Source: Patescibacteria group bacterium
GTDB taxonomy: Bacteria; Patescibacteriota; Minisyncoccia; UBA6257; JACRHW01
Direction of reading: 5' to 3'
Length of the DNA stretch: 64,000 nucleotides
NCBI GenBank assembly: GCA_028865725.1
Contig: JAGWJP010000002.1
Span: 40,050 to 104,049 of the forward strand
In this document: piece after piece, positions 16,477 to 47,419 of the stretch
Layout of the letters: each line of letters opens with the position of its first letter
Numbering within the stretch: position 1 is the stretch's first letter
Made by a program: the position numbers and the translations under genes
The notes under the pieces: model-generated
What the model was told of the DNA's origin: nothing
Database searches by the model: none
Seen by the model: the letters and a program-made list of their open reading frames with translations, nothing else

Positions 16477-19400
16477 TTAGAAGCTGAAGTTGCTGACCTG
16501 ACCGTTTATTGGAGTGACCACAATTGGATTGATAGATGCATTAGAAACACCATCATTCCATGAAGCGGCCTGAAGGTTAATCTGGTAAGAGCGTGTGCCT
16601 GTTGTGGTTAACAAGTTTGTTGCGCTACCAAGATTAGCCTTTACGATCAAGTACTGTGTCGAACCCTTTGCAACAGTCCACCCCGTAGAACCATTAAGTG
16701 TCACTACGTAAGTGTTTGTTGATGTTGCGGTCGATGTTCCAAGCGTAGTGGATGGAGCATCGCTACCATACACTGTCAACGCTACGGAAGATGAACTCTG
16801 AAGCAATGAACCTGCCATGCTGAGTGAAACAGACTTCACGACGACATCATGGTTTGCACCCGCGGTGATGTTGAATTGACCAACAATCGATCCGTCAGAC
16901 AAACCTGCTGGTGAAGTGAAGGAAGGTCCTATAGCAGGCACCATTGATGTCTGGTAGATGGTAAACGTTGCTCCGGTGTTTACAGCCAATGCAACGCTTG
17001 CATCTGATCCTGACATGTGGCCTTGTGCAGTGATAGAAGGAATACCTACGTACACTGTATCTGCAGAAGTTGCGCCACCCGTCTGATCGTTCATATCAGC
17101 CACAACATTCAAGTTTATGTAGCTGTTCTGAGGAACATTAAGTGGTGTGCTGAGAGTAAAGGTGGTTGTTGAGCTTGCTGCTGAAATACCAGAAACCGCT
17201 GAACCAACCTGAGTCGTACCGCTCATCAAGCGAAGGTTCTTGATGTCGTTTGCAGATGATGCATGGACATCAACACCCAAAGAGGTGACATCAACAGACT
17301 CGCTGTTGCTCGTCTCTGAAAGCTTGAAGCTTCCAAGAACTACGCCAGAAACTCCCATACCGACCTGTTGGGTCTGTATAGACGGGGTTGCTAATGCAGA
17401 GGTTAATGTACCCGCCGAATTTACCGTGACACTCTGACCGGCAACAGATGTTCCTGTTGCAGTACGAGTGGTATTTGTAGAAGCTCCTGTTCCCTGTGCG
17501 GTTGTCAAACTTACAACCGTCGATGCAGAGGAGGTTGCTCCCGAAACGGTGTCAGCATACACATCTACTACGATCTGACCACCTGTCGCGATTGCGATTG
17601 GTGCAGATGGAGAAACGGTGAATGCCGATGTTGTTACCGTTGCCTGTGTAGAACCAACCTGCGTGCCACCCACCATCACCTTCATATTCTGAAGATGACC
17701 TGCAGTTGAACTTGGGGTAAGCGTAAGGCTTGTTACATTAATGCCTTCTGCAGGACCTGCAGTAAGCGTAAATGAACCCACGCGTACTCCCATTGCACCC
17801 GCCACGGTAGAAATTGAACCCACTGCGTTGTTCTTTGCCGCTACAAACGGTGCAGAAGATGCACTGAGTGCATTTCCTGAATGCGTTGTTGTATCGGTAA
17901 TCGCTGCAAGTGAAGTATATCCCTGACCCGTAATGGATGTGATACTGCCTGTTACGCTACCCGCATACGCAGCAGCAATGTCTGCAATAACCGACAATTT
18001 GCGTGTTGTATTTGCTGGGATAATGTAGTTCAGGTTAGTAAGCGCATTTGCTTTTGACGTTCCCACTGTAGCGCCCGCAGTAACGGTGGTACCAATCTGG
18101 ACACCCTGATCATCTACGAGCTTTAGGTTATTCCATACGGTTGTTTCTGCACCGGAAGTATAACTTCCGATTTGATACGTAAGTGCAGTAATTCTCACAG
18201 GCTCACCATTTGCCTGGAAGTCAAATGTGGCAAGTGTTGCGTTTGTTGCACCTGCTGCAACGTAGTTATTTGGAGATGCTGCATCCTTGTTTACCACAAG
18301 AGTACCTGCATTCACCGTTACTTGTGTCGCAGAGATTGGGAATGATACCTGTGCCAACACTGATGCGCCTACATTGTAGGTCATGTCTGTTGCAACCACA
18401 TCATACGAGCGCTGGATAGTGAACGTCATATGGCGATTCACACCACCAACCACATCTGCGTACACAGAAAGATTTACCGTCTGACCTGAAGCAATCTGTA
18501 AAGGATTCTTGGAGAGGTCAAACACCGCCGTTCCGTCTGCATTCAAGTTTGCGAGTGTTGCACCTACCTGGGTGGTTCCATTCATAAGCTTGATATTTGC
18601 GAGATCGGTTGAAGCATTAATCGTATCATTCTCTGTGAGTTTGATAGACTTCACGCTTACTGCGCTGTTTGCAGAAACAAATGAGAACTGACCTGCCAAG
18701 AAGTTTGTTGTTCCGGCATTTACTGAACCACCTGTTGAAAGGTTGTTAAGGGTCAACGTTGCGAGTGATGGATTTGAAACCGTCACCGCCGTCATCTGGT
18801 TTCCTGTCATTGGGAAGGAGCCTGAGACACTCGTAGAAGCGGTGATATCGGAAGCCGAGTTCACGCCAAATGCGAATGTTTTTGAAGCACCCGTTGTTGC
18901 AATATCAGCAGCTACTGTGATCAAGCGTGTTTGGCCTGCTTTCACAGTAAACAACCCCGAGCTGAGAGAGAACTGTACTTTTCCATTTGACAACCCGATG
19001 TTTGTGGCGAGCACGGTGCTACCATCCATCAAGTATACATTCGATACGTCATTATCGCTCGAAAGTCCCGAACGATATACGTTCATTGCGGTCACAGTGG
19101 TGTCGCTTGAACCGCCCACAACTTTCAACACCATGAAAGGAATTTTACTTCCTCCTGCAGGGAAGTTCCCTGCTGCAGGGTTTGATGCATCGACAGAAAC
19201 TGTCAATCCATTTCCTGTTGGAGCTGGAGTTGTCGTTCCTGTGGTCGTTGTTGTTGTCGTTCCTGTGGTCGTTGTTGTTGTCGTTCCTGTGGTCGTTGTT
19301 GTTGTTGCGGTCATAGACGCAAATGCCTTCTGCGAAATAGGACCGAAATAACCTGCTGCAGGAGATACTCCCTTTGCAGCTTGCCATTTTGCTACTGCCG

Positions 19401-19752
19401 CTTTGGTCAAAGAACCAAAGTATCCTGTCGCAGGCACTGCGAGATAGCCATCGCTATGCAATACCCCTTGTAAGCAGGTGACATCATTACCACGTGAACC
19501 TACGGTGAGGCTTCGTGAGAATGAGCATGCTGCAGATGCCGTACTTGCACCTGTTGATGCGCTGAGCTGCGCTTGTAACGCAGTGATCTGTTGCAACAAC
19601 GATGCAATCTGAGCCTGAAGCTCTTCAACAGTTGCAGCTTTCGCAACAGTTGGAAGCGCTAATGCTGCCCCGGAAAGCCACATCGCAGTGGTCAATGAAA
19701 GTCCGATTGCGATTACTTTCGCAGCAGTCTTTTTGAATTTGTTGTTACCCAT
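16477..19752 (-). CDS. large secreted surface protein: signal peptide, N-terminal peptidoglycan-binding domain, poly-Thr linker, ~850-aa Ig-like beta-rich repeat region
   Basis: Start at MGNNKFKK (19752) with signal peptide; PG_binding_1-like segment (GSRGNDVTCLQGVLHSDGYL...GYFGSLTKAAVAKWQ); (T/G)-rich linker; long Ser/Thr/Gly/Val-rich beta repeats. Confidence 0.7.
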   Translation of the reverse strand: MGNNKFKKTAAKVIAIGLSLTTAMWLSGAALALPTVAKAATVEELQAQIASLLQQITALQAQLSASTGASTASAACSFSRSLTVGSRGNDVTCLQGVLHSDGYLAVPATGYFGSLTKAAVAKWQAAKGVSPAAGYFGPISQKAFASMTATTTTTTGTTTTTTTGTTTTTTTGTTTPAPTGNGLTVSVDASNPAAGNFPAGGSKIPFMVLKVVGGSSDTTVTAMNVYRSGLSSDNDVSNVYLMDGSTVLATNIGLSNGKVQFSLSSGLFTVKAGQTRLITVAADIATTGASKTFAFGVNSASDITASTSVSGSFPMTGNQMTAVTVSNPSLATLTLNNLSTGGSVNAGTTNFLAGQFSFVSANSAVSVKSIKLTENDTINASTDLANIKLMNGTTQVGATLANLNADGTAVFDLSKNPLQIASGQTVNLSVYADVVGGVNRHMTFTIQRSYDVVATDMTYNVGASVLAQVSFPISATQVTVNAGTLVVNKDAASPNNYVAAGATNATLATFDFQANGEPVRITALTYQIGSYTSGAETTVWNNLKLVDDQGVQIGTTVTAGATVGTSKANALTNLNYIIPANTTRKLSVIADIAAAYAGSVTGSITSITGQGYTSLAAITDTTTHSGNALSASSAPFVAAKNNAVGSISTVAGAMGVRVGSFTLTAGPAEGINVTSLTLTPSSTAGHLQNMKVMVGGTQVGSTQATVTTSAFTVSPSAPIAIATGGQIVVDVYADTVSGATSSASTVVSLTTAQGTGASTNTTRTATGTSVAGQSVTVNSAGTLTSALATPSIQTQQVGMGVSGVVLGSFKLSETSNSESVDVTSLGVDVHASSANDIKNLRLMSGTTQVGSAVSGISAASSTTTFTLSTPLNVPQNSYINLNVVADMNDQTGGATSADTVYVGIPSITAQGHMSGSDASVALAVNTGATFTIYQTSMVPAIGPSFTSPAGLSDGSIVGQFNITAGANHDVVVKSVSLSMAGSLLQSSSSVALTVYGSDAPSTTLGTSTATSTNTYVVTLNGSTGWTVAKGSTQYLIVKANLGSATNLLTTTGTRSYQINLQAASWNDGVSNASINPIVVTPINGQVSNFSF
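19232..19303. repeat. 3 perfect tandem copies of a 24-bp unit (gtcgttcctgtggtcgttgttgtt) encoding the poly-Thr linker
   Basis: Direct reading of the sequence; encodes TTTTTGTT repeats in the 1116-aa protein. Confidence 0.9.
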
Positions 19753-20323: not shown

Positions 20324-20998
20324 TTACGATTGTGCCTGATATTTACTTCCTCGTCCTCCATTTCCGATACGTATTGCCCTGCCTTGCTCACAAAGTGTCC
20401 GCAAGTCATTTCGGATTGTTTTTTCATTGAATTCAGGAAAGTGTACAAGGATATCCATAAGACGCACAGATTCCTTTTTATGTAAAAGGGAGAGGATTGT
20501 TTCTTGTCGCATAGTTAACGATGCGTGTGTAGGAGTACTTGCGCTCCCCGATTTGTGTTCATGCGTTCCATGGTGTACTGCTGCACGTTCTTGAGAGGTA
20601 GTCGATTTCTCTTGCGTGGGGATATCTGCTCCAGAATAACTATTTTTAGGAAATACGGAACTTTCCGGAAATATAGCTAACGCATCTTGTCCCGTAAAAC
20701 GTTCTTGCTTGTAAATATATGTCTCACAGCGCCCCAAAAAAATTCCCAGCTCACGAGAAAGCACGTCATAATTTTCTTCAGCAATGAAATGCAACCCCGC
20801 TGCGTTTTTAAGCAACAACTCTACCATACCCACCTGTTCCCTCATCCTGCTCAGATCTTTCTTACAAAATGATTCCATAATCAACAACGCATATTCTTTT
20901 ACTTTCTCGCGATATTGTGTGTCGGAAATAGTGTGCGCTACCGCATACAAAACGCGACTGATCACACTAAATTGTTCAACGATAGGTTCCATGCGCAA
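20324..20998 (-). CDS. hypothetical protein, possible regulator with C-terminal winged-helix
   Basis: N-terminal helical bundle-like region and C-terminal segment (ILSLLHKKESVRLMDILVHFPEFNEKTIRNDLRTLCEQGRAIRIG) resembling a DeoR/MarR-type wHTH. Confidence 0.35.
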   Translation of the reverse strand: MRMEPIVEQFSVISRVLYAVAHTISDTQYREKVKEYALLIMESFCKKDLSRMREQVGMVELLLKNAAGLHFIAEENYDVLSRELGIFLGRCETYIYKQERFTGQDALAIFPESSVFPKNSYSGADIPTQEKSTTSQERAAVHHGTHEHKSGSASTPTHASLTMRQETILSLLHKKESVRLMDILVHFPEFNEKTIRNDLRTLCEQGRAIRIGNGGRGSKYQAQS

Positions 20999-20999
20999 G

Positions 21000-23021
21000 T
21001 TATTTAAGATAGCGCGCTGCGGTTGAAGAAGGATTAATAGTCAGCGCTTTTATAAGCTCGGGATTTGCGTGGGCAAGGTCGTGAAGTTCATAGTAAGTAA
21101 TACCCAGAAGACGGTGTCCCACCTCCATATCAGGGCGAAGAGCAACAATCTGCGATGCAAACGTACGCGCATCATTATAATCCTGTTCCATAAGCAGTGT
21201 GGATGTGAGCGCATCAAGCGTTTCGATACGATTAGGACTCTTAGCGTTCGCTTCACGTAAAACTATTTCTGCTTTCTTTATGTAAGCTTCGGAACTCAAT
21301 TTAGTTCCTAAAAGCTGATATGTTTTTCCCAGGACATAATCAAGAAGCAAATACTGAGGATCTTGTTTTCTTGCAACATCAATCATGGCTAACCCCTTGT
21401 CCAGGGCCGGAATATTCTGTTCAATTTCCTTACTATCAAAAGAAGCAACCCAGGAATACAAGTATACGCTCAATTCCTTCTCTACCTCACGGTGTCCTAG
21501 GTAGGATGGCTCCTGTGCCATAGACTCGAAACGACTTACTCCCTCTGCAAGCGAACTTTGTCGAACAAAAAAATATGATGCCGCGAGTTCTTGATTTTTG
21601 TGGTAGGCGGCAGAATTTTCATATAACGCCCAGATACTCATCACGGCGAGCACGGTTACTACCACAAAAAAAACAAAACTCGCGTTAAACTGATATTTGG
21701 GTAGAGATTGCGGTGTATTCTTCTTTGTACTCTGTTCCTCTCCTCCCACCGCAGCATGTCGTGCAAGAACCAAAAAAACAAAAAAAGAAAGGTAGGAAGA
21801 GAACGTATCAAACAGTACTAAGTTTTGTACGAGATAGGCAACGGGCAGCGCAATGTAAATACCGGATACCATTGCGGAATTCCTTTTAAGGATACGAGAA
21901 ACATACCATCGATATAATGCAAAGAAAATAAAACAATAGGCTAAAAATCCTAAAATTCCTGATGTTGCGAGAAGATCAAACACAATACTGTGTGCGTGAT
22001 CAAACCATATCTCAATTCCTGAGTGGATAGGATCGTAATGCTTATCAAAAATTACGGAAAAATTTTCAGGACCATACCCGATTAAGGGTCTCTCTAAAAA
22101 TCCTTTCCATGCCGCTTTCCATGTTGCTACGCGAAGAGTGAAGGTGGAAAGATTATCAAGCCCTGAAAATGGAGTACTCTTCCCCCTTAATACAACAAGT
22201 CCCGTCAAAACAGTCCCAAGCAATACTACAAGCAATCCGATGCCCAGCATGCGTTCCCGACGTTCTGTCCCTTTCCACAGCAAAAAGCCTCCATACACAA
22301 ACAGTCCCGCGAAAAGCCCGATATATGCACCACGTGTCTGTGTAAGCACAAACGCGATAAGATCTACTACCGCCACACATCCCAGTAAATAGTTTTCTGC
22401 ATAAGGAAGGGCGTCTTTGGATCGTCGCCCATGAGCACTATTACGAAGCATCAGCAACCCGATAAATGCAAACACAAAAATAAGAAACCCCGCGAGATAG
22501 GAGGGATTGCCAAATACCCCGCTTACCCGTTCAAAGGTATGTGTACCAAAGTTTATTGCACTGGAAATACGATAAAACGCTGCAAAAGGTGATGCATAAA
22601 TCAATACCCGCACCACATTCATGCAATCATCTATCGTGGCAACATCAAGTAAGAGAAGGAAAAATGCAAAATAATGCAGCAAAGAAAACAACCCCTCGCT
22701 CCGTTCAAAATTGGACCACATGCTGAACGCAGGGTTTACTCCCCACACCGCAGCAAGTGTCAGGGCACCCACAAATATACTTACCGCAGCAACAATAGGC
22801 TCGGTGAAACGAAATCGCACTACACGATGTTGCGCAACATCAATAAGCCACGCTAATAACGCAATCTCGACAAAAAACCTAAACCAGAACACCTTGCTTA
22901 CGATAAATGGAAAATAAAACTGAGGTGAGAAAAAAAACAAAGATAATACCGACAACAAAAGAAATACTTTAACAACAATACGCATAAATAGATTCAAATT
23001 AAAACGGTTTTTGTGTTGCAA
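21000..23021 (-). CDS. O-antigen ligase (Wzy_C)-like polytopic membrane protein fused to C-terminal TPR repeats
   Basis: ~12 TM helices with a large periplasmic loop followed by TPR-like helical repeats (YYELHDLAHA...). Confidence 0.65.
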   Translation of the reverse strand: MQHKNRFNLNLFMRIVVKVFLLLSVLSLFFFSPQFYFPFIVSKVFWFRFFVEIALLAWLIDVAQHRVVRFRFTEPIVAAVSIFVGALTLAAVWGVNPAFSMWSNFERSEGLFSLLHYFAFFLLLLDVATIDDCMNVVRVLIYASPFAAFYRISSAINFGTHTFERVSGVFGNPSYLAGFLIFVFAFIGLLMLRNSAHGRRSKDALPYAENYLLGCVAVVDLIAFVLTQTRGAYIGLFAGLFVYGGFLLWKGTERRERMLGIGLLVVLLGTVLTGLVVLRGKSTPFSGLDNLSTFTLRVATWKAAWKGFLERPLIGYGPENFSVIFDKHYDPIHSGIEIWFDHAHSIVFDLLATSGILGFLAYCFIFFALYRWYVSRILKRNSAMVSGIYIALPVAYLVQNLVLFDTFSSYLSFFVFLVLARHAAVGGEEQSTKKNTPQSLPKYQFNASFVFFVVVTVLAVMSIWALYENSAAYHKNQELAASYFFVRQSSLAEGVSRFESMAQEPSYLGHREVEKELSVYLYSWVASFDSKEIEQNIPALDKGLAMIDVARKQDPQYLLLDYVLGKTYQLLGTKLSSEAYIKKAEIVLREANAKSPNRIETLDALTSTLLMEQDYNDARTFASQIVALRPDMEVGHRLLGITYYELHDLAHANPELIKALTINPSSTAARYLK

Positions 23022-23755: not shown

Positions 23756-26371
23756 TTACTTACTAAGCACGAGTTCTTTCCCTTTTGTAGATACGCTGAC
23801 CCGCCCCTCCTTCAGCTCACCAAGCACTAATTTTTGTGCAACTGCGTCCACAATGAGTTTTTGTATTAATCGCTTTAGCGGACGTGCCCCAAAATCATGG
23901 TCATATCCATGTTCAACAAGATACTGCTTGGCTTTATCATCAACCTTCAACACAATATTCCGCGCCGCTAGTCGTTCCTTCACATAAGTAAGCTGTACAT
24001 CAATGATCTTAATGAGATCTTCCTTGCGGAGCGAATTAAACATCACAATTTCATCAATACGGTTCAGAAACTCTGGCCTAAAATATCCCTTCAACGCTTC
24101 CTGCATTTTTATTTTTACGTTATCTTCCTGTGCAACCGCCCCCTCCCCCATCACAAATCCAAAATTTCCTTCTTGTACGAATTCGCCTCCGATATTCGAT
24201 GTCATGATGATAATAGTGTTCTTAAAATTCACAGTACGCCCCTTCGAGTCAGTCAACCGTCCATTATCAAGCACCTGCAATAAAATATGGAATACTTCGG
24301 GATGCGCTTTTTCGATTTCGTCAAAAAGAATCAATGAATACGGTCTGTGTTTCACAATCTCAGTAAGTTGACCTGCTTCGTCATACCCCACATATCCCGG
24401 AGGCGAACCAATCAATTTAGCGATAGAATGCTGTTCCATGTACTCTGACATATCAAGACGCACGATCGCGTCCTCATCATTAAACATAAAATCTGCGAGC
24501 GCCTTAGCAAGCTCTGTCTTCCCTACTCCGGTTGGCCCCAAAAACAGGAAAGAACCAATGGGCCTCTTTTCGTCCGCAAGCCCCAACCTGCTTCGTTTGA
24601 TTGCCCGTGACACAGCCTCTATTGCCTCATCTTGTCCGATCACCCGCTGCTTCAATACCTGTTCCATCGTCCTTAATTTTTCTGCTTCACCTTCCAAAAT
24701 CTTATCAACAGGAATTCCTGTCCAGCGCGAAACAATCTTTGCAATTTCTTCATCAGTTACTTTTTCTTTTACAAATTGAAATCCTTTCTTGGCCCGCAGA
24801 ATCTTTCTCTCTAACGTTTTCAGCGATTTCTCTGTCTGCGGTATTTTTCCGTATACAATCTCTGCAACCTTTTCTAAATTACCTTCCCGTTCATAACGAT
24901 CGGCATCCTGCCGAAGCTCATCTAGTGTTTTCTGAAGCGCCTGTGCTTTCTCAATCATCCCTTTTTCATCTTTCCATTGCTGCATCAGAGAATCTTTTCC
25001 ACCTCGAAGCTCTTTGAGTTCGCTCTGAATTTCAGAAAGCCTTTTCTTGCTTGCCACAGAAGATTCCTTCTTTAACGCCTCGCGCTCGATCTCAAGACGC
25101 GTAATAGTACGCGTACGCTGCTCTAATTCAGCAGGCATCGAACCCATTTCTAATTTTACGCTCGATGACGCCTCGTCAATAAGATCCACTGCTTTGTCAG
25201 GAAGAAAACGATTGGCGATATAGCGACTGCTGAGCGTTACCGCTGCCACGATAGCACTATCTGCGATTTTGACTCCATGATGCATCTCATACTTCACTTT
25301 TAATCCGCGCAAAATAGCAATACTATCCTCCACGCTCGGTTCTTCTACAAGAATAGGCTGAAATCTACGTTCGAGTGCTGCATCTTTTTCGATGTATCGC
25401 TGATATTCCTTAAATGTCGTCGCTCCAATTGCGCGTAATTCACCCCGCGCAAGAGGAGATTTTAACAAATTTGCCGCATCGAGTGCCCCCTCCGCAGCAC
25501 CAGCCCCCACAATCATGTGAATTTCATCGATAAACAAAATATATTTACCTTGATTTTTTTGCAATTCCTTCATGAACGCTTTCAATCGATCCTCAAATTC
25601 ACCTCGAAATTTCGTACCGGCAATCAGCGCCCCAAGATCTAAGGAAATAACCTCCTTGCCTTGCAACATTTCAGGAACATCTTTGGTTACGATGCGCTGT
25701 GCGAGCCCTTCAATAATGGCGGTCTTTCCCACTCCAGGTTCACCAATCAAGATAGGATTGTTTTTTGTTCTGCGCGATAAGATCTGGACCAATCTGCGCA
25801 ATTCATTTTCCCGTCCGATAATGGGATCAAGCTTTCCTTCTCGTGCAAGCTCGGTCAAGTTTACTGCATACTTTTCTAATGTTTTAAACTTCGTTTCTGG
25901 CGTTTCATCATTAACTTGCGCTCCACCGCGAACATCCTGAAGCACTTTTACAAATTCGCCGTAATTCACCCCAAAATTTTTCAAAATTTCTCTGCCCCGA
26001 GATGAAACCTCAAGAACACCCAATAACAAATGCTCACATGAGATAAATTCATCTTTCATTTTTACCGCTTCTCGTGATGCACTTTCTAAAATCTGCATCA
26101 TCTCCTGAGAGATGTAGAGTTGCGCTTTCTGCGCTCCATTAACGACGCGGGGAATGCGTCCAAGTTCTGTTTCAACGGTTGCCTGTAATGAGCTGATATT
26201 AGTGCCTAGTTTGACAAGGCTCGCCAACACAAACGACTCCTCTTGGTTAAGAAGGGCGTATAATAAATGCAATGATTTTAATTCCGCATTATTACGCTCA
26301 AGTGCGATATCTTGAGCGGTTTGTATAGCTTCCTGTGCTTTTATTGTAAAACGATTAAATGGGCTGAACAT
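23756..26371 (-). CDS. clpB: ATP-dependent chaperone ClpB
   Basis: 871 aa; Clp_N domain, two AAA+ modules (GEPGVGKT, GPTGVGKT) and a long coiled-coil middle domain. Confidence 0.9.
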   Translation of the reverse strand: MFSPFNRFTIKAQEAIQTAQDIALERNNAELKSLHLLYALLNQEESFVLASLVKLGTNISSLQATVETELGRIPRVVNGAQKAQLYISQEMMQILESASREAVKMKDEFISCEHLLLGVLEVSSRGREILKNFGVNYGEFVKVLQDVRGGAQVNDETPETKFKTLEKYAVNLTELAREGKLDPIIGRENELRRLVQILSRRTKNNPILIGEPGVGKTAIIEGLAQRIVTKDVPEMLQGKEVISLDLGALIAGTKFRGEFEDRLKAFMKELQKNQGKYILFIDEIHMIVGAGAAEGALDAANLLKSPLARGELRAIGATTFKEYQRYIEKDAALERRFQPILVEEPSVEDSIAILRGLKVKYEMHHGVKIADSAIVAAVTLSSRYIANRFLPDKAVDLIDEASSSVKLEMGSMPAELEQRTRTITRLEIEREALKKESSVASKKRLSEIQSELKELRGGKDSLMQQWKDEKGMIEKAQALQKTLDELRQDADRYEREGNLEKVAEIVYGKIPQTEKSLKTLERKILRAKKGFQFVKEKVTDEEIAKIVSRWTGIPVDKILEGEAEKLRTMEQVLKQRVIGQDEAIEAVSRAIKRSRLGLADEKRPIGSFLFLGPTGVGKTELAKALADFMFNDEDAIVRLDMSEYMEQHSIAKLIGSPPGYVGYDEAGQLTEIVKHRPYSLILFDEIEKAHPEVFHILLQVLDNGRLTDSKGRTVNFKNTIIIMTSNIGGEFVQEGNFGFVMGEGAVAQEDNVKIKMQEALKGYFRPEFLNRIDEIVMFNSLRKEDLIKIIDVQLTYVKERLAARNIVLKVDDKAKQYLVEHGYDHDFGARPLKRLIQKLIVDAVAQKLVLGELKEGRVSVSTKGKELVLSK

Positions 26372-26427
26372 AAATATCTATTGGCTGGATTAATAATGAA
26401 ATCTGAGCATACGCACCCGTACATACC

Positions 26428-27705
26428 TTAAAGATTGTGAGGTCTTTCCACAAGAAGCATACTGACATCTTCCTCGTCCTTACCCCGCAGCACCTTAAGA
26501 GTAATAACATCCCCTACCTTATACTGACTTATGATATCGGTCAAGCTTTTTTCTTGGGATATCAGAGCTCCGTTTACAGAAAGAATAATGTCCCCCTCTT
26601 TAATACCAGCCTTGTCTGCAGGAGAACCTTTTATTACCGCCGGAATATTATTATCTCCTCGTACGAGAGCGCCCTCATCCACAGACAAATGTTCGGTATC
26701 CTTCAATGACTTGGTGATTAATACATAACGCACACCTATGTAGGGGGTGGAAATCTTACCCGTAGTCGCCACATCTTCTATGGCACGCTTTACGTTATTG
26801 ATAGGAATAGCAAACCCAATACTCTGCGCCCCTTGCGCCAATGCAGCATTCACGCCTATTACTTCTCCCTTTAAATTCAGAAGCGGGCCACCGGAGTTTC
26901 CTTCATTAATGGCAGCATCAGTTTGTATCAATCCCTGAAGAGTCTCCTCTGTATTTGCGCCTTGTGCTGTTACCGTTCTGGCTAATCCGGAAATTATACC
27001 TTCTGAAGCGGTATTCCGGAATTCCGCTAACGCATTTCCTATTGCAATCACGGTCTGCCCAATCATTGCCGTATCCGAGTCCCCTAAAACAAGCGAGGCG
27101 AGCCCTTTTGCAGGAATTTTTACTACTGCCATATCTTGAAATGGATCCCGCGCAAGTACGGTTGCATCAAATTTTTGTCCATCATTGAGATACACGGTAT
27201 ACGATGCAGTTGGGTCACTTACCACATGTTTATTTGTCACAATAAGGCCGTTAGGTGATACAATAAACCCAGACCCTTCACCTACCTCCTTTAATTGGGT
27301 GCCATTTTGGCGAACATTGGGTATTGCAATCTGTCCGCCAAAAAAATTATTGACCGTAGCATTTCCTTGCCAAGGATTCGTATAATACTCTTCATATACA
27401 GGCTCATTCTTTGATACTACAATACTCACTACTCCCGGCATGGCCTGATGAATCACATTTATCACCCGTTCCTCGTGAAGATCCGCTTCGTTACTGACGG
27501 AGGACGACATTAGAGTACTGGGGTACGACACGTGAGATATCAAAGACGGGATGAACCTGGGAGTAAGTATTGTAAGAAGTCCGGGCATGTGATACGGGAT
27601 TGCACCTTCTGCACGCTGCGGATAGAGCCACAACCCCACACACAAAAGACCACTAATAATCGATGTTAGGATAAGAGCGGGGAAAAAAATATGTTTATGT
27701 GTCAT
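26428..27705 (-). CDS. htrA: HtrA/DegP-family serine protease with PDZ domain
   Basis: N-terminal TM helix; trypsin-like catalytic segments (TNKHVV, GNSGGPL) and a C-terminal PDZ domain. Confidence 0.85.
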   Translation of the reverse strand: MTHKHIFFPALILTSIISGLLCVGLWLYPQRAEGAIPYHMPGLLTILTPRFIPSLISHVSYPSTLMSSSVSNEADLHEERVINVIHQAMPGVVSIVVSKNEPVYEEYYTNPWQGNATVNNFFGGQIAIPNVRQNGTQLKEVGEGSGFIVSPNGLIVTNKHVVSDPTASYTVYLNDGQKFDATVLARDPFQDMAVVKIPAKGLASLVLGDSDTAMIGQTVIAIGNALAEFRNTASEGIISGLARTVTAQGANTEETLQGLIQTDAAINEGNSGGPLLNLKGEVIGVNAALAQGAQSIGFAIPINNVKRAIEDVATTGKISTPYIGVRYVLITKSLKDTEHLSVDEGALVRGDNNIPAVIKGSPADKAGIKEGDIILSVNGALISQEKSLTDIISQYKVGDVITLKVLRGKDEEDVSMLLVERPHNL

Positions 27706-31017: not shown

Positions 31018-32330
31018 GAAAAATTGCTCGTGCCGGCGGTTGTGGAAGGATCCACAATGACGCTTGCCGCGCTTATTGCGTAATTATCCGTCACGTGAAT
31101 CGTCGTATCGGTGATAGCAGAACTTGAAGCTGTGGTCGGTGCTATGATTGCTATGCTTGGCGGCGCAGTCTCGATCACATAATGATCCTGATTTTCTTGC
31201 GCACTGTTTGAAACGCTATCCGTCGCCTTGATTACTAAATTTCCGCTTGACGTGATGCGAATCGTGCAGTCGACGGTAGAGGTATCGGTCTGCGTGCAAG
31301 AAAAATTGCTCGTGCCGGCGGTTGTGGAAGGATCCACAATGACGCTTGCTGCGCTTATTGCGTAATTATCCGTCACGTGAATCGTCGTATCGGTGATAGC
31401 AGTATTAGAGACCTTCGTACTCGGCGTAATAGTAATTATCGGAGGAACTCCTTCAATTACGTAATCATTTTCTGACTGGCTTGAAGTATTTCCAAGCAAG
31501 TCTGATGCCTTAATCGTCACATTTCCGCTTGAAAGCACATCGATTGAGCAATCAACGGTTTTGCTGTTGGTTTGGCTGCAGAGAAAACTCCCTACACTTG
31601 CCGTCGTAGAGGTACTAAGTGTCACATCGCTCGAAGATAATCCGCTATTATCGGTAATATGAATGAATGTATCCGAAATCGTATCGCGACTTGACTTTGT
31701 CGGTGCCGTAATCGTAATCGACGGAGGAATCGCATCGATCACATATCCGCTTTTGGTTTCTGTTGCCGCATTTCCCGCATTATCCGTCGCCTTGATTACT
31801 AAATTTCCGCTTGACGTGATGCGAATCGTGCAGTCGACGGTAGAGGTATCGGTCTGCGTGCAAGAAAAATTGCTCGTGCCGGCGGTTGTAGAAGGATCCA
31901 CAATCACATTCATCACATTGATGCCGGAATTCAAGGTCGGCAAATCGAGCACATGAATTGTGGTATCAATTATAGTTGCAGTGGAGCTTGTCGTCGGTGC
32001 TGTAATCGTAATCGACGGAGGTGTTGTTTCGATGCGATACCCTGTTTCGGTAGCTGTATTTACATTACCACTTTCATCGGTTCCTTTAATGACAAGATAC
32101 CCACTTGAAGTAATATGAATCGTACAGTCGACAACTCCGATACTTGTCTGCGTACAAGAAAAATTGCTCGTGCCGGCAGTTGTGGAAGGATCCACAATCA
32201 CATTTGAAACAAGAATATGCGTATTTACCACGTGGACGGTCGTATCAGTAATCGCAGTTGTAGAAATCTTTGTAGGAGCCGTAATGGTAATTGCAGGAGG
32301 CGTCGTATCAATCACCTGGAGCGTACTTGA
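30030..32330. repeat. array of ~9 near-identical ~285-bp direct repeats inside the giant surface-protein gene
   Basis: The same long strings (e.g. gtgatgcgaatcgtgcagtcgacggtagaggtatcggtctgcgt...aaaaattgctcgtgccggc) recur at ~30404, 30961, 31248, 31806 and 32150. Confidence 0.7.
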
Positions 32331-36220: not shown

Positions 36221-38671
<2,451 letters not shown>

Positions 38672-38678
<7 letters not shown>

Positions 38679-40153: not shown

Positions 40154-40499
40154 GACGAGTGCGTGCTTGTTCTAAGATTGCTCCCCTTTCCGCCTCCGTC
40201 TCCAAATACGCCTGTTCTTTGATTTTTCGCGCAGCTTCTTCTGCTTCTTCTACAATACCTCGCGCATGCTCTTTGAGTGCTTGCGCTTCCTTTTGCTGCT
40301 CTGCGGCAAATGCTTGCTTGTCTTGATTTAATTTATCGGACAATTCATTTATTTTTTTTAATGTCTCGTCATCTTTCTCAATCCGAGCAATAAGCGGTTT
40401 GTACACAAAGAATGCAAGCACCCACACAAGAAGCCCGAAATTGATAATCTGAGCCAATAATAATTTCATGTCGATACCAAGACTTCCTAATAATTTCAT
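40116..40499 (-). CDS. atpF: F-type ATP synthase subunit b
   Basis: 127 aa; N-terminal TM helix followed by a charged coiled-coil stalk. Confidence 0.7.
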   Translation of the reverse strand: MKLLGSLGIDMKLLLAQIINFGLLVWVLAFFVYKPLIARIEKDDETLKKINELSDKLNQDKQAFAAEQQKEAQALKEHARGIVEEAEEAARKIKEQAYLETEAERGAILEQARTRLAEIENAEHHKK

Positions 40500-40520
40500 A
40501 CTCGGAACATTCGCTTAAAA

Positions 40521-40736
40521 TTATTTTACAAATTTAAGAATTAAGGCGGTCACCAACGCGTAGATGGCGATAGCCTCTGCAAATGCAATAGCAATAATCA
40601 TCGATACCTGAATTCTATCAGAATTATCAGGGTTGCGCGCCATTCCCATAAGCGCGGCAGCGCCGATTATGCCAATGGCAAGCGCGGGACCAACAGTTCC
40701 TATAGCCATGACAAATGCTGATGGATCTTGATTCAT
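40521..40736 (-). CDS. atpE: F-type ATP synthase subunit c
   Basis: 71-aa two-helix proteolipid with conserved carboxylate in helix 2 (IAIAFAEAIAIYAL). Confidence 0.85.
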   Translation of the reverse strand: MNQDPSAFVMAIGTVGPALAIGIIGAAALMGMARNPDNSDRIQVSMIIAIAFAEAIAIYALVTALILKFVK

Positions 40737-40751
40737 AATCGTAGTGTTATA

Positions 40752-43177: not shown

Positions 43178-43188
43178 AATACGTTATA

Positions 43189-44763: not shown

Positions 44764-44791
44764 TACCTGGCGCATATGCCAGGTATTTTTA
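44764..44791 (+). terminator. Rho-independent terminator after the deaminase gene
   Basis: atacctggc-gcatat-gccaggtat followed by ttttt. Confidence 0.6.
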
Positions 44792-45022: not shown

Positions 45023-47419
45023 TCATAAATTTTCAAGCGCCTTACGCGTCAAAGGACCCACCATGCCAATGGGTGCAATACCGTGTTCAGTTTGAAACGT
45101 GCGGACGCCTGCGGCAGTAAGCGGCCCGTAATATCCGGTGATAGGGCCCGTATAATAGCCGCCTCGAGTAAGGTATATTTGAAGATTCGTTACCTCATCT
45201 CCCCGCGAACCCATACTTATATTCTGAGAGAGTGATAACATCTTCGTCTGCGACAAAAGCGAAGAGATATCATCGTGTGAAATGAACGTATTCAGCACAC
45301 CGCGCGTCAAAGGACCCACTATGCCAACGGGTGCAATACCGTGTTCGGCTTGAAACGCACGGACGCCTGCGGCGGTAAGCGGCCCGTAATATCCGGTGAT
45401 AGGGCCCGTATACACATGGAGATGAGCGAGGAGAGTTTGGAGTACAACCACACTATCACTCTTAGCGCCCTGAGAAAGAAACGTGGTAAAAATGAGATTC
45501 CGCGTAGATGAAGAGACTGATTCATTCGGTAACACTACCTCCGGAGTCGCGGTTTTTACTACAGGCTCTTCAGTTGATTCAGGAAGTGAAACAGGAGACT
45601 CCACTATCGTTTTTGAAATCGGTAGGGTGGTAGAAGAGGCAGAAGATGAAGAGACTGATTCATTAGTATTTTCTACGCCGGAAAAAGAACTGCCTCCTCC
45701 GACAAAATGAACAAATGTAACCTTGCTTTGATCCGTTGTTGCAGAAACTTCGGTGCCTCTGTTTCCTACGGAATCTTGAAAATCAATCGTAAAAGGGATC
45801 TGACCCGTGGCATCGCTTGAAACAAGAGTATACGATGTTGTCCATGTATTTCCTGTAGTATTGGTAGAAGCTACACTATGCCCCAGAAGCGTTACAGTAG
45901 GCGTTGAGATAGATTCGCTTGCAGTAAACGTAAGCGTCACGGAGTCACCCGCCACAGCATGGCTCGGAATAGTATTATTTGATCCAATGGAAACCCCTGA
46001 AAGCAAAGGAGCCTGACCGTCTGAAAGTGCAATCGACTGATCGTGGGGAACAAGAACATTCGTCACCCCGTTTGCGTCGGTAACCGCGTTTTCATCGGCA
46101 TAAAGACCCAGCGCAGCTGTGGTCGATGCAGAGGTATTACTCCATGGAGAACCTGAAAATGTAAGCTCAACCTTCCAAGGAGATGAGGAATTTATGATGG
46201 TGGCGCTTGATGCCGTAAGCGGCGAGACGCCTCCACCGTTTTGATCTACGTGCCAATCAGCTGCCGATATCGCAGAAAGCGTAGAACTTGTATCCGTAAG
46301 GTTAACAAGGAGTGTTGAGGGAGACGTAATGGAAGCAGAATCTACAGTAATAATGGGAGAAAAAATTTGAACGCGCTGATTGCTAAAATCAACCACATAT
46401 GCAAGCGAAGAGCTTGAAAATGCGAGAGCAACAGAACCGCTAAACTGACCATCTCCGGAGCCAGACGATCCGAATGTGGAGAGATAATTTCCCGCGCTGT
46501 CGAACACTTCGATGCGATTGTTGCTGTAATCTGAGACATAAACACCAGAAGAGCTCGAAATCGCAACTCCGAACGGTAATGCAAATTGACCGTTTCCGCT
46601 TCCTGAAATCCCTTGTTGGCATTGCGAAGTACAAACTTCAAACGAAGATGCACCGTCCTTTACCCCCCACCCAAAGGTAGATATGAAATTTCCCGCGCTG
46701 TCGAACACTTCGATGCGATGGTTACTCTCATCAGCAACATAGACATCTGATGAACTCGAAAGAGCAATACCCGTAGGACTTTGTAACTCTCCCGTGCTTG
46801 TTCCTAGCGTTCCAAATTGAGAGAGATAATTTCCCGCGCTGTCGAACACTTCGATGCGATTATTAAAATGATCAGAAACAAATAGTTGCGAGGAACTTGA
46901 AAGAGCAATATTTGCCGGACGGCTTAGTTGTCCGTTTCCAGACCCTGCAATGCCTGCTTGACAGTTTGACGTACAGATTTCAAATGTCGAAGATCCATTG
47001 CTCACGCCCCACCCGAACGTAGAAATAAAGTTACCTGCGCTATCGAACACGTCGATGCGATTGTTATTGTAATCCACAACATACATATCGGAAGAACTTG
47101 AAAAAGCAATACCTGTCGGAGAATTCATCTGACCGGCACCTGAGCCCAAAGATCCAAATTGGGAGAGATAATTTCCCGCGCTGTCGAACACTTCGATGCG
47201 ATTGTTGACGTTGTCCGCAACGTACACTTGAGAAGAGGTGGAAATGGCAATCTCACGCGGACCGCTAAACTGGCCGCTTCCGGATCCGGATGAGCCAAAT
47301 TTTGAGAAATAGGTATAAGAACTCGCCGCATGTACAGTATCCGCGATACCAAAAGTGCCCACCATGCCCATGGCAACAAAAAAAATCAACAGTATGATAC
47401 GACGCGCACGAAAATACAT
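45023..47419 (-). CDS. secreted NHL-repeat beta-propeller protein with Ser/Thr-rich stalk and two C-terminal peptidoglycan-binding domains
   Basis: Signal peptide; six NHL repeats (NNRIEVFDSAGNYLSQFG); two PG_binding_1-like copies (GPITGYYGPLTAAGVRAFQAEHGIAPVGIVGPLTR). Confidence 0.75.
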   Translation of the reverse strand: MYFRARRIILLIFFVAMGMVGTFGIADTVHAASSYTYFSKFGSSGSGSGQFSGPREIAISTSSQVYVADNVNNRIEVFDSAGNYLSQFGSLGSGAGQMNSPTGIAFSSSSDMYVVDYNNNRIDVFDSAGNFISTFGWGVSNGSSTFEICTSNCQAGIAGSGNGQLSRPANIALSSSSQLFVSDHFNNRIEVFDSAGNYLSQFGTLGTSTGELQSPTGIALSSSSDVYVADESNHRIEVFDSAGNFISTFGWGVKDGASSFEVCTSQCQQGISGSGNGQFALPFGVAISSSSGVYVSDYSNNRIEVFDSAGNYLSTFGSSGSGDGQFSGSVALAFSSSSLAYVVDFSNQRVQIFSPIITVDSASITSPSTLLVNLTDTSSTLSAISAADWHVDQNGGGVSPLTASSATIINSSSPWKVELTFSGSPWSNTSASTTAALGLYADENAVTDANGVTNVLVPHDQSIALSDGQAPLLSGVSIGSNNTIPSHAVAGDSVTLTFTASESISTPTVTLLGHSVASTNTTGNTWTTSYTLVSSDATGQIPFTIDFQDSVGNRGTEVSATTDQSKVTFVHFVGGGSSFSGVENTNESVSSSSASSTTLPISKTIVESPVSLPESTEEPVVKTATPEVVLPNESVSSSTRNLIFTTFLSQGAKSDSVVVLQTLLAHLHVYTGPITGYYGPLTAAGVRAFQAEHGIAPVGIVGPLTRGVLNTFISHDDISSLLSQTKMLSLSQNISMGSRGDEVTNLQIYLTRGGYYTGPITGYYGPLTAAGVRTFQTEHGIAPIGMVGPLTRKALENL

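What the first reader, a model, noticed from the sequence alone, without database searches (positions are those of the whole stretch)
16477..47419. Three giant secreted proteins each carrying peptidoglycan-binding domains, plus a coiled-coil lytic transglycosylase: a cell-wall-targeting surface repertoire
Three large secreted proteins carry PG_binding_1-type modules (…TGYFGSLT…AFQ…G…GPLTR): the 1116-aa Ig-repeat protein (N-terminal domain), the ~1900-aa frameshifted repeat protein (C-terminal domain) and the 798-aa NHL-propeller protein (two C-terminal domains). Position 2751..4271 encodes a membrane-anchored coiled-coil protein ending in an MltB-like lytic transglycosylase domain. Together these occupy ~13 kb. 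If the organism is an episymbiont, as its reduced metabolism suggests, PG-binding modules on long stalk-like repeat proteins are plausible host-cell-wall attachment or remodelling devices rather than self-wall anchors.
Basis: inference. Interest (0 to 1): 0.55.

Follow-up and report, generated by a model that had tools for sequence, protein, structure and literature searches.

The report
Wall-anchored surface proteins of a Parcubacterium
Three large secreted proteins of an ultrasmall (CPR/Parcubacteria) bacterium do carry peptidoglycan-binding modules, but these most likely tether the proteins to the bacterium's own wall; one belongs to a widely conserved family that may be the group's unidentified S-layer protein.

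Summary
The window holds exactly four PG_binding_1 (PF01471) modules, in the three proteins named, plus a membrane-anchored coiled-coil protein with an SLT_2/MltB-type lytic transglycosylase domain.

The host-wall interpretation is the less likely one. All three proteins have signal peptides that look cleavable and no other retention module.

- **1091-aa protein.** It belongs to a length-conserved family across Parcubacteria (562 clusters at E<=1e-30; 80 loci in 80 assemblies). 191 of 230 full-length members have one PG-binding module, always N-terminal. One member has SLH domains, the classic own-wall anchor of S-layer proteins, in its place. A Wzy_C (O-antigen-ligase-like) gene lies within 2.5 kb in 42 of 83 loci.
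- **Giant protein.** It reads as a fibrillar adhesin: a carbohydrate-binding-module-like tip, about 11 Ig-like repeats and a "choice-of-anchor" domain. Its orthologues carry different C-terminal modules.
- **Its frameshift.** This is a 2-nt AC duplication at the edge of a repeat that an earlier assembly could not resolve, so it may be an artefact.
- **Transglycosylase.** Its coiled coil resembles EnvC, which suggests a division hydrolase acting on the cell's own wall.

Verdict: own-wall-anchored envelope proteins. The conserved family is a plausible, untested S-layer candidate. Moderate interest.

The parts
16477..19752 (-). Gene for the 1091-aa conserved envelope protein ('p1091'). It has a signal peptide, a short coiled coil, PG_binding_1, a Thr-rich linker and six beta-sandwich modules of about 150 aa.
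   Evidence: It is 100% identical to NCBI 'peptidoglycan-binding protein' P0001. The AF2 model has pLDDT 86.3. A module landmark NxxLMxGxTQVG recurs at aa 238, 386, 542, 689 and 839.
19636..19752 (-). p1091 signal peptide, aa 1-39, with a likely cleavage site AKA|AT.
   Evidence: Hydrophobic segment at aa 13-31. The cleavage site was read by eye and is an inference.
19309..19515 (-). p1091 PG_binding_1 domain (aa ~80-148). It is preceded by a heptad helix at aa 42-66.
   Evidence: PF01471 at 30.9 bits. The family profile matches solved PG_binding_1 domains 4lpq, 5nm7 and 1lbu. The model shows three helices at 89-100, 114-126 and 138-148.
19219..19305 (-). Thr-rich linker (TTTTTTG)n of p1091, encoded by a perfect 24-nt tandem repeat.
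   Evidence: TRF finds period 24, 3.2 copies and 100% matches at 19229-19305. The model is disordered at aa 150-176.
16480..19215 (-). All-beta body of p1091: six beta-sandwich modules.
   Evidence: Foldseek gives only generic multi-Ig-like matches, among them PrgB and the Bacillus anthracis Sap S-layer assembly domain.
21000..23021 (-). Wzy_C (O-antigen-ligase-like) polytopic membrane protein with C-terminal TPR repeats. It is a candidate O-oligosaccharyltransferase partner of p1091.
   Evidence: PF04932 at 68.4 bits. A homologue lies within 2.5 kb of the p1091 homologue in 42 of 83 loci.
20324..20998 (-). HTH_DeoR-like protein immediately upstream of p1091.
   Evidence: PF08220. It is conserved immediately upstream in 19 loci.
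23756..27705 (-). ClpB and HtrA genes, syntenic with p1091.
   Evidence: ClpB lies upstream on the same strand in 47 of 83 loci and HtrA in 33.
28618..34079 (-). Giant surface protein, 1819 aa once the 2-nt insertion is removed. In order it has: signal peptide, CBM-like N-terminal domain, three IPT/TIG ('choice-of-anchor Z') domains, about eight Ig-like repeats of ~94 aa, an FN3-like domain, unassigned domains and a C-terminal PG_binding_1.
   Evidence: Intact orthologues exist: P0121 (2269 aa, 56% identity) and P0128.
30992..30995 (-). Frameshift site: ACAC where the sister repeats have AC.
   Evidence: It lies about 66-75 nt from the end of contig JAGWUQ010000005.1 in GCA_028868355.1.
33120..33983 (-). 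N-terminal tip domain of the giant protein, with a beta-jelly-roll fold like a carbohydrate-binding module.
   Evidence: AF2 pLDDT 67. Foldseek matches CBM4, CBM16, CBM22 and CBM11 at E about 1e-4 with TM about 0.5-0.6. The domain is conserved at the N-terminus of P0121, P0128, P0191 and P0195.
30043..32309 (-). Array of ~94-aa Ig-like repeats. Six units matched the TPPSITITAPT-type landmark; about eight are inferred from the spacing.
   Evidence: TRF finds a 282-nt period at 30950-31532.
28648..28809 (-). C-terminal PG_binding_1 of the giant protein.
   Evidence: PF01471 at 40.5 bits.
45023..47419 (-). 798-aa NHL protein. It has a signal peptide (VHA|AS), a six-bladed NHL propeller (aa ~35-355), beta domains, a Ser-rich linker and two PG_binding_1 modules.
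   Evidence: It is identical to NCBI P0241. No full-length orthologue was found; the NHL plus PF01471 combination appears only in P0247 and P0306.
45035..45472 (-). The two C-terminal PG_binding_1 modules of the NHL protein.
   Evidence: PF01471 at 104.7 bits in two stretches. Motif cores at 45350-45394 and 45092-45136.
2751..4271 (-). Membrane-anchored protein: TM at aa 48-84, an EnvC-like coiled coil at aa ~88-303 and an SLT_2/MltB-type lytic transglycosylase domain at aa ~314-500 that contains a TQES motif.
   Evidence: PF13406 at 28.7 bits. EnvC matches: PDB 8hd0_E at E 9e-4 and NCBIfam NF008644 at E 2.8e-8, below its cut-off. MltB TIGR02282 at E 4e-6.

Best explanation
The window comes from a Parcubacteria/Paceibacteria-type CPR bacterium. 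The finding is a set of envelope proteins held non-covalently on the bacterium's own peptidoglycan by PG_binding_1 modules, which play the part that SLH, LysM or LPXTG anchors play in other single-membrane bacteria.

1. **The 1091-aa protein** is exported and its signal peptide removed (inferred). A short N-terminal coiled coil probably oligomerises it (inferred). The PG_binding_1 domain next to it binds the sacculus. A Thr-rich linker, probably O-glycosylated by the neighbouring Wzy_C-type enzyme, spans the wall. Six beta-sandwich modules form the exposed layer. It is a core, probably single-copy envelope protein of the lineage and the best candidate for its S-layer subunit (inferred).
2. **The giant protein** is a fibrillar adhesin. 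Its C-terminal PG_binding_1 is the anchor, about 11 Ig-like/TIG domains form the stalk, and an N-terminal domain resembling a carbohydrate-binding module is the distal ligand-binding tip. If any part contacts a host, it is that tip and not the PG-binding end.
3. **The NHL protein** is a lineage-specific propeller, a ligand-binding or enzymatic head, anchored by two C-terminal PG-binding modules.
4. **The coiled-coil transglycosylase** has the layout of EnvC, PcsB and CwlO (membrane anchor, coiled coil, hydrolase). It most likely remodels the cell's own wall during growth or division.

The frameshift in the giant gene is more likely an assembly error than a real inactivation.
For: **Shown**
- Four PF01471 modules above threshold, and only four in the window.
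- Each protein has one N-terminal hydrophobic segment and no other membrane segment, apart from one weakly hydrophobic stretch inside the giant's Ig-like repeats.
- The p1091 family is large and length-conserved. There are 855 hits of mostly 1070-1250 aa, named from Wolfe-, Lipton- and Azambacteria and from Minisyncoccia; 562 clusters at 50% identity with E<=1e-30; and 80 loci in 80 assemblies.
- 191 of 230 full-length members have exactly one PG-binding module, starting at aa 24-126.
- Member P0385/P0502 has a signal peptide, SLH domains (PF00395, E 1.9e-16; three by my reading of the P0502 sequence), a Ser/Thr linker and the same body, including the NYIIPANTTRK signature.
- An unassigned module (GDLIK..VYY..KRYVFPNE..SWY.DFS) replaces the PG-binding module at the N-terminus of other members. 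The same module forms the C-terminus of the giant's orthologue P0128.
- The giant protein matches NCBIfam 'choice-of-anchor Z' at 88.9 bits against a cut-off of 30.
- Synteny: Wzy_C lies within 2.5 kb in 42 of 83 loci (median gap 607 bp) and ClpB lies upstream in 47. In an Azambacteria locus the gene is followed by Wzy_C, glycosyltransferases and a PMT-like protein.
- The giant's N-terminal domain resembles carbohydrate-binding modules.
- The transglycosylase's coiled coil has EnvC as its best named match in both NCBIfam and PDB.

**From the literature**
- Peptidoglycan biosynthesis genes are frequent in the phylum, and S-layers have been seen in some members (PMC13293708).
- A Parcubacterium attached to Methanothrix shows an apparent S-layer and encodes three PG-binding proteins, which its authors link to its own envelope (bioRxiv 10.1101/2022.04.20.488981).
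Against: - There is no experimental localisation or binding data.
- Signal-peptide cleavage was judged by eye only.
- I could not show that this genome encodes peptidoglycan synthesis. No mur genes lie in the 64 kb, and attempts to walk along the contig failed.
- The structural matches of the p1091 body are generic Ig-like strings with low TM scores, so they do not identify an S-layer.
- The SLH-bearing relative comes from an unclassified 3.8-kb metagenome contig, so its lineage is unknown.
- Identity of 35-60% across orders is higher than is usual for S-layer proteins (my own judgement).
- Kuroda et al. (PMC10936435) interpret highly expressed PG-binding-domain proteins of Paceibacteria as host-attachment factors. 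Their example PMX_810_sub_00350 is only 692 aa, so it may belong to another family.
- The EnvC similarity is below the curated cut-off and could partly reflect coiled-coil composition. No ftsEX genes were seen in the window.
Confidence: 0.7

Rival explanations
1. The PG-binding modules are the business end. Held on long stalks, they bind or help breach the murein of a bacterial host, and the lytic transglycosylase cuts host wall to open a feeding junction.
For: The organism belongs to a phylum whose cultivated members are episymbionts. Lytic transglycosylases of Patescibacteria have been proposed to compromise host envelopes (PMC11665869). Kuroda et al. suggest that PG-binding-domain proteins act in host attachment. 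In the giant and NHL proteins the PG-binding modules are at the C-terminus, far from the signal peptide, so if the N-terminus stayed membrane-bound they would be distal.
Against: - The N-terminal segments end in AxA-type sites and look cleavable. No other retention device exists, so a distal PG-binding end would leave the protein unattached.
- In p1091 the module is at the proximal end in 191 of 230 relatives and is replaced by SLH domains in one.
- C-terminal modules are swapped among the giant's orthologues, and the protein carries a 'choice-of-anchor' domain.
- Parcubacteria with archaeal hosts also carry PG-binding proteins; these hosts have no murein, to my knowledge.
- The transglycosylase is membrane-anchored with an EnvC-like coiled coil.
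Confidence: 0.15
2. The 1091-aa protein is a fibrillar adhesin or spacer that projects singly from the wall. It is not a lattice-forming S-layer subunit. It is still anchored to the cell's own wall by its PG-binding module.
For: Its best structural matches are stalk-like Ig strings such as PrgB, antigen I/II C-terminal domains and pilins. pTM is only 0.50, so no compact arrangement is predicted. Sequence conservation is high for an S-layer protein.
Against: - It has no distinct terminal adhesive domain: all six modules are alike.
- Length is uniform and there is one locus per assembly across the lineage.
- A relative has the SP-SLH-linker-body layout typical of S-layer proteins.
- It neighbours glycosylation genes.
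- Its composition is S-layer-like: Thr, Ala, Ser, Val and Gly make up 60%, with 2 Cys.
Confidence: 0.25
3. The 'repertoire' is a coincidence of annotation. PG_binding_1 is simply the common wall-anchor module in this lineage. The four genes are functionally unrelated and not co-regulated. The giant gene is a dead pseudogene.
For: The genes are separated by housekeeping genes and are not an operon. The NHL protein has no full-length orthologue. The giant gene has no homologue beside HtrA in other loci. A 2-nt frameshift is present in both available assemblies.
Against: The order HtrA-ClpB-(HTH)-p1091-Wzy_C is conserved. The two assemblies are not independent, and the frameshift lies about 70 nt from a contig end at a repeat boundary. 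Both halves of the giant gene remain open for 1100 and 799 codons, and intact orthologues exist.
Confidence: 0.3

Closest known systems
S-layer proteins of single-membrane bacteria with SLH anchors (e.g. Bacillus anthracis Sap/EA1)
   Same: The order is the same: signal peptide, N-terminal wall-anchoring domain, linker, then about six beta-sandwich modules. A relative of p1091 (P0502) has SLH domains in place of the PG-binding module. The Sap assembly domain is among the Foldseek matches. The gene neighbours glycosylation genes.
   Different: The anchor here is PG_binding_1, which presumably binds murein itself, whereas SLH domains bind a secondary cell-wall polymer. There is an extra N-terminal coiled coil. 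Lattice formation and abundance are untested. There is no sequence homology to Sap outside generic folds.
Fibrillar adhesins of Gram-positive bacteria (anchor + stalk + tip; Monzon et al. 2021, PMC8286594)
   Same: The giant protein has a C-terminal wall anchor, a long stalk of Ig-like/TIG repeats and an N-terminal putative binding domain.
   Different: The anchor is a non-covalent PG_binding_1 domain, not an LPXTG/sortase signal. The ligand of the tip is unknown, and its model has only moderate confidence (pLDDT 67).
EnvC / PcsB / CwlO-type hydrolases and activators controlled by FtsEX
   Same: The layout is N-terminal membrane or secretion signal, long coiled coil, then a C-terminal wall-hydrolase-type domain. 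EnvC is the best named match for the coiled coil.
   Different: The catalytic domain is an SLT_2/MltB-type lytic transglycosylase, not LytM, CHAP or NlpC/P60. No ftsEX genes were seen in the window. The EnvC similarity is below curated cut-offs.
PG-binding-domain proteins of archaea-parasitising Paceibacteria (Kuroda et al. 2024, PMC10936435) and Ca. Nealsonbacteria (bioRxiv 10.1101/2022.04.20.488981)
   Same: They come from the same phylum, are secreted, combine a PG-binding domain with Ig-like domains, and are reported as very highly expressed.
   Different: Homology to the proteins here was not established: PMX_810_sub_00350 is 692 aa. Kuroda et al. favour host attachment, whereas the evidence here favours anchoring to the cell's own wall.

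Membership tests
PG_binding_1 (PF01471) | Match to the Pfam profile above the gathering score (23 bits) | tested here: met
   Scores are 30.9, 40.5 and 104.7 bits (the last from two copies). The p1091 family profile matches solved PG_binding_1 domains 4lpq, 5nm7 and 1lbu.
PG_binding_1 (PF01471) | Three-helix bundle fold | tested here: met
   The AF2 model of p1091 has helices at 89-100, 114-126 and 138-148 with pLDDT about 90. The other three modules were not modelled.
PG_binding_1 (PF01471) | Actual binding to peptidoglycan, and whose peptidoglycan | not testable with these tools
   This needs sacculus pull-downs.
Family 3 lytic transglycosylases (SLT_2 / MltB) | Profile match above the gathering score | tested here: met
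   PF13406 scores 28.7 bits against 24.3, but covers only profile positions 76-197 of 292. MltB TIGR02282 gives E 4e-6, far below its equivalog cut-off.
Family 3 lytic transglycosylases (SLT_2 / MltB) | Catalytic glutamate in an E-S motif at the start of the domain | tested here: inconclusive
   The sequence reads ...AILTQESSINGV... at the start of the matched region. I did not inspect its alignment to the catalytic Glu of MltB residue by residue.
EnvC/PcsB/CwlO-type FtsEX-controlled hydrolases | Coiled coil N-terminal to a wall-hydrolase domain | tested here: met
   The coiled coil at aa 95-303 aligns to EnvC (8hd0_E, E 9e-4; NF008644, E 2.8e-8), followed by SLT_2.
EnvC/PcsB/CwlO-type FtsEX-controlled hydrolases | A partner FtsEX ABC transporter | tested here: inconclusive
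   No FtsE or FtsX was found among the window's genes. The rest of the genome could not be reached.
S-layer protein (single-membrane type) | Secreted, with a dedicated wall-anchoring domain at one end | tested here: met
   It has a signal peptide and an N-terminal PG_binding_1. SLH domains occupy the same position in relative P0502.
S-layer protein (single-membrane type) | Self-assembly into a two-dimensional lattice covering the cell | not testable with these tools
   This needs cryo-ET or in vitro assembly. The AF2 monomer has pTM 0.50.
S-layer protein (single-membrane type) | One of the most abundant proteins of the cell | not tested
   No expression data exist for this family. The gene is monocistronic, with a promoter-like site about 390 nt upstream and a strong terminator, which is weak evidence.
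Fibrillar adhesin (anchor-stalk-tip) | Anchor, a stalk of repeated Ig-like domains, and a distinct terminal binding domain | tested here: met
   In the giant protein the anchor is PF01471, the stalk is TIG/choice-of-anchor-Z domains plus ~94-aa repeats, and the tip resembles a carbohydrate-binding module (moderate model confidence).
Choice-of-anchor Z repeat proteins (NCBIfam NF058597) | Profile match above the curated cut-off (30 bits) | tested here: met
   88.9 bits at aa 322-400 of the giant protein. The C-termini of orthologues differ, as the family name implies.
NHL-repeat beta-propeller | Multiple NHL repeats forming a six-bladed propeller | tested here: met
   PF01436 scores 98.5 bits and PF17170 (six-bladed propeller) 63.9 bits. 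No structure was predicted.

The most novel reading that the evidence does not exclude
The 1091-aa family is the still unidentified S-layer (outer sheath) subunit of Parcubacteria/Paceibacteria. It would be tied directly to murein by a PG_binding_1 domain instead of SLH, oligomerised by a short coiled coil, and O-glycosylated on its Thr-rich linker by the syntenic Wzy_C-type transferase. The N-terminal anchor module would be exchangeable between lineages (PG_binding_1, SLH, and at least five apparent unassigned module types), tracking differences in wall chemistry.
Probability: 0.4. Interest if true: 0.6.

Novelty: new variant of a known kind. Interest (0 to 1): 0.45.

Why it matters
Ultrasmall CPR bacteria live attached to other cells, and their envelope is the interface for that lifestyle. 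Yet the proteins that build the S-layer-like coat seen by cryo-EM on Parcubacteria have not been identified in any paper my searches found.

This analysis makes the question testable. It points to one conserved gene of about 1100 codons, with one locus per assembly in the scan, and with a syntenic glycosylation partner. That gene can be sought by proteomics and subtomogram averaging in the few available (co-)cultures.

It also changes how PG-binding domains in CPR genomes should be read. The anchor-swap evidence argues they are tethers to the cell's own wall, so candidate host-contact domains should be sought at the opposite ends: the CBM-like tip and the NHL propeller.

Tried and rejected
- **Walking along the source contig for peptidoglycan synthesis genes.** The RF1 look-up returned only a 4-kb Logan contig. 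The P-type ATPase and the 204-aa protein were not on record. Abandoned.
- **Linking p1091 to the highly expressed PG-binding-domain genes of Kuroda et al.** The one gene found in the supplement is 692 aa, so identity of family was not established.
- **The giant protein as a conserved neighbour of HtrA.** Rejected: no homologue of its repeats or C-terminal region lies in the 80 related loci. The 2279-aa protein beside HtrA in L003 showed no similarity to the giant's repeat or C-terminal region in that search.
- **Independent confirmation of the frameshift from the second assembly.** Rejected: GCA_028868355.1 is sequence-identical over 14.6 kb, and the site lies about 70 nt from its contig end.
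- **Hidden RNA gene in the ORF-free, GC-rich gap 8406-9337.** No Rfam match at E<=1 and no excess folding (z = -0.7).
- **Promoter and terminator scan around p1091.** Site counts do not exceed shuffles, so this is only weak support.

Full report
**1. What is in the sequence**

The window is gene-dense, mostly on the minus strand, with 41-51% GC. Pfam annotation of the larger ORFs shows a reduced, fermentative gene set:
- RF1, ribosomal protein L25, class II aldolase, a PfkB kinase, a transketolase split into two genes, ribulose-phosphate epimerase and GAPDH;
- thioredoxin reductase, a DsbA-like protein, ClpB and HtrA;
- an F-type ATPase operon, an H+-pyrophosphatase and a P-type metal ATPase.

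The NHL protein and the 1091-aa protein are identical to NCBI proteins named 'MAG: peptidoglycan-binding protein [Patescibacteria group bacterium]' on a 236,400-bp contig. The same DNA is in assembly GCA_028868355.1.

**2.

- PF01471 is found above threshold in the three proteins named, four modules in all. A six-frame motif scan finds no other copy in the 64 kb.
- ORF 2751-4271 has one membrane segment, a long coiled coil and an SLT_2/MltB-type domain.
- The '1116-aa' protein starts at Met26 and is 1091 aa.
- The 'about 1900-aa' gene is two ORFs separated by a 2-nt AC duplication inside one of several near-identical repeat units. Removing it gives an 1819-aa protein.

**3. The frameshift**

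In GCA_028868355.1 the giant gene is split over two contig ends. Contig 5 starts at window 31067 and contig 3 at window 34161. The lengths add up: 71,101 + 162,177 + about 3,093 bp equals the 236.4-kb contig that the window comes from. That contig is therefore the same data with the repeat gap closed.

The AC duplication is present in contig 5 but lies only about 66-75 nt from its end, exactly where unique sequence meets the unresolved repeat. The two assemblies are not independent. Intact orthologues exist (P0121, 2269 aa, 56% identity). I consider an assembly artefact more likely than a pseudogene, but only read mapping can settle it.

**4. The 1091-aa protein belongs to a large conserved family**

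*Distribution.*
- A word-indexed search gave 855 hits. The best 120 are nearly all 1070-1250 aa and nearly all carry PF01471. Those with names come from Parcubacteria, Wolfe-, Lipton- and Azambacteria, Minisyncoccia and Paceibacterota.
- An exhaustive HMMER search of 1.84 billion cluster representatives found 562 at E<=1e-30.
- A scan of one genome per GTDB species found 80 loci in 80 assemblies. Named records include Colwell-, Jorgensen- and Yanofskybacteria.

*Structure.* The alignment consensus and an AlphaFold2 model (pLDDT 86.3) agree on this order:
- signal peptide;
- a heptad helix at aa 42-66;
- a three-helix PG_binding_1 domain at aa 80-148;
- a disordered Thr-rich linker, encoded by a perfect 24-nt tandem repeat;
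- six beta-sandwich modules of about 150 aa.

Thr, Ala, Ser, Val and Gly make up 60% of the residues, and there are two cysteines. The family profile matches solved structures only through the PG-binding domain. Foldseek gives generic multi-Ig strings, among them PrgB, alpha-2-macroglobulin, integrin legs and the B. anthracis Sap S-layer assembly domain. All have low TM scores, so this is not diagnostic.

**5. Gene neighbourhood**

- In the window the minus-strand order is HtrA, ClpB, a 239-aa membrane protein, Wzy_C, an HTH protein, then p1091.
- A 0.9-Mb genome has HtrA, ClpB, HTH and its homologue in the same order.
- In an Azambacteria locus the homologue is followed by Wzy_C, several glycosyltransferases and a PMT-like protein.
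- Across 83 loci a Wzy_C homologue lies within 2.5 kb in 42, with a median gap of 607 bp. In 39 of the 45 loci with a Wzy_C homologue anywhere in the flank it lies downstream on the same strand. ClpB lies upstream on the same strand in 47, and HtrA in 33.
- Of the 41 loci with at least 8 kb on both sides, 34 have Wzy_C or ClpB.

The Wzy_C fold includes protein O-oligosaccharyltransferases (established knowledge). Together with the Thr-rich linker, this makes O-glycosylation of p1091 a reasonable inference.

**6. The anchor-swap argument, the key evidence**

I built an HMM of the family's PG-binding region and searched 230 full-length members. 191 have exactly one copy, always at the N-terminus (start aa 24-126). 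The other 39 have different N-terminal modules of 150-200 aa.

One of these, P0385, scores 1.9e-16 against the SLH domain. Its longer cluster-mate P0502 reads, in order: signal peptide, SLH domains (three by my reading), a Ser/Thr linker, then the same beta body, including the NYIIPANTTRK signature. This is the textbook layout of an S-layer protein in a single-membrane bacterium, with SLH where p1091 has PG_binding_1.

A second, unassigned module (GDLIK..VYY..KRYVFPNE..SWY.DFS) replaces the PG-binding module in other members. The same module forms the C-terminus of P0128, an orthologue of the giant protein. Separately, the giant protein matches NCBIfam's 'choice-of-anchor Z' repeat at 88.9 bits against a cut-off of 30. 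Its four orthologues share the N-terminal domain but end differently and lack a PG-binding module.

Modules that are exchanged at the same terminal position, one of them a known own-wall anchor, are best read as alternative anchors. This is inference, but it rests on direct sequence observations.

**7. The giant and NHL proteins**

*Giant protein.* After its signal peptide it has, in order:
- an N-terminal domain of about 340 aa; the model has moderate confidence (pLDDT 67), and its best structural matches are CBM4, CBM16, CBM22 and CBM11 carbohydrate-binding modules (E about 1e-4, TM about 0.5-0.6);
- three IPT/TIG-like domains;
- about eight Ig-like repeats of ~94 aa;
- an FN3-like domain and two unassigned regions;
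- the C-terminal PG-binding module.

This is the anchor-stalk-tip layout of Gram-positive fibrillar adhesins, with the PG-binding module in the anchor position.

*NHL protein.* It has a VHA|AS signal-peptide site, a six-bladed NHL propeller, beta domains, a Ser-rich linker and two PG-binding modules. No full-length orthologue was found. Only two other proteins among the best 120 hits combine NHL with PF01471. It is therefore a lineage-specific product of domain shuffling.

**8. The transglycosylase**

Its coiled coil (aa 95-303) has EnvC, the murein hydrolase activator, as the best named match in NCBIfam (E 2.8e-8, below the cut-off). In PDB, EnvC (E 9e-4) ranks just behind a phage tail-needle coiled coil (4lin, E 5e-4). 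The order membrane anchor, coiled coil, hydrolase is that of EnvC, PcsB and CwlO, which act on the cell's own wall under FtsEX control (established knowledge). No ftsEX genes are in the window. This points to housekeeping wall remodelling, with modest confidence.

**9. Literature**

- Reviews state that peptidoglycan synthesis genes are frequent in the phylum and that S-layers have been seen in some members (PMC13293708).
- Ca. Nealsonbacteria, attached to the archaeon Methanothrix, shows an apparent S-layer and encodes three PG-binding proteins, which the authors relate to its own envelope.
- Kuroda et al. found secreted PG-binding-domain proteins among the most highly expressed genes of unknown function in Paceibacteria that parasitise methanogens, and proposed host attachment. 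To my knowledge those hosts have no murein, which fits own-wall anchoring better.
- My searches found no paper that identifies the S-layer protein of Parcubacteria/Paceibacteria. The held library is incomplete.

**10. Verdict**

The 'cell-wall-targeting' reading is probably inverted: the PG-binding modules are most likely tethers to the cell's own wall, and any host-contact function lies in the opposite ends. Confidence is about 0.7 for own-wall anchoring and about 0.4 for the more specific claim that the 1091-aa family is the S-layer subunit. Wall-anchored surface proteins are a known kind. The variant here, a PG_binding_1-anchored and anchor-swappable envelope family syntenic with Wzy_C and conserved across a major CPR class, appears undescribed and is directly testable.

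Noticed in passing
window 8406-9337: A 932-bp stretch with no long ORF and raised GC (about 51% against about 44%). It holds three short consecutive minus-strand ORFs (8814-9161, 8722-8910, 8516-8725) that look like one gene broken by stops. There is no Rfam match and no excess RNA folding.
   Followed up: partly
window 9338-10339 and 10864-11763: Transketolase is encoded as two separate genes, an N-terminal TPP-binding half and a Pyr/C-terminal half, 524 bp apart. They sit within a run of pentose-phosphate and glycolysis genes.
   Followed up: no
window 19229-19305: A perfect 24-nt tandem repeat (3.2 copies, 100% identity) encodes the (TTTTTTG)n linker of the 1091-aa protein. Perfect identity suggests recent expansion or contraction, so linker length may vary between strains.
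   Followed up: no
window 31067 and 34161 (contig ends of GCA_028868355.1): An earlier assembly of the same organism breaks on both sides of the giant gene's repeat array. The window's 236.4-kb contig equals those two contigs plus about 3.1 kb of closed gap.
   Followed up: yes
relatives P0436, P0456, P0472, P0497 (N-terminus) and P0128 (C-terminus): An unassigned module of about 120-150 aa (GDLIK..VYY.G.DGKRYVFPNEKTY.SWY.DFS.V...) has no Pfam match at E<0.1. It occupies the anchor position in two unrelated surface-protein families, so it is a candidate new wall-binding domain. By a rough motif grouping, several other unassigned N-terminal module types also occur in the family.
   Followed up: partly
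window 61256-61870, next to 58803-60920: A 204-aa protein with a signal peptide, a C-terminal membrane helix and a strikingly Met/Gly-rich sequence (MGMMG, MDTMMGG, YMPMMSGYG, WNMMQG). It lies beside a heavy-metal P-type ATPase that has an HMBD domain, so it may be a Cu(I)-binding accessory protein.
   Followed up: no
window 62277-63308: A 343-aa secreted protein with a signal peptide and a long Gln/Glu/Lys-rich, probably coiled-coil region. No Pfam match.
   Followed up: no
window 36454-41798 (locus L001 gene list): The F-ATPase operon is called as gene1-a-c-b-alpha-gamma-beta-epsilon. No separate delta (OSCP) gene is called, and the b subunit is only 127 aa.
   Followed up: no
window 50815-51369 and 52323-53039: Two SLOG/LOG-like ('lysine decarboxylase'-family) genes lie on opposite strands. 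A small Trp-repressor-like gene and an unassigned gene lie between them (seen in L001).
   Followed up: no
locus L003 19031-19876: In a related 0.9-Mb genome, a small 281-aa protein combining He_PIG/PKD-like domains with PG_binding_1 lies about 5.5 kb downstream of the p1091 homologue and close to pilM. This suggests PG_binding_1 is used as an anchor on many small surface proteins in this lineage.
   Followed up: no
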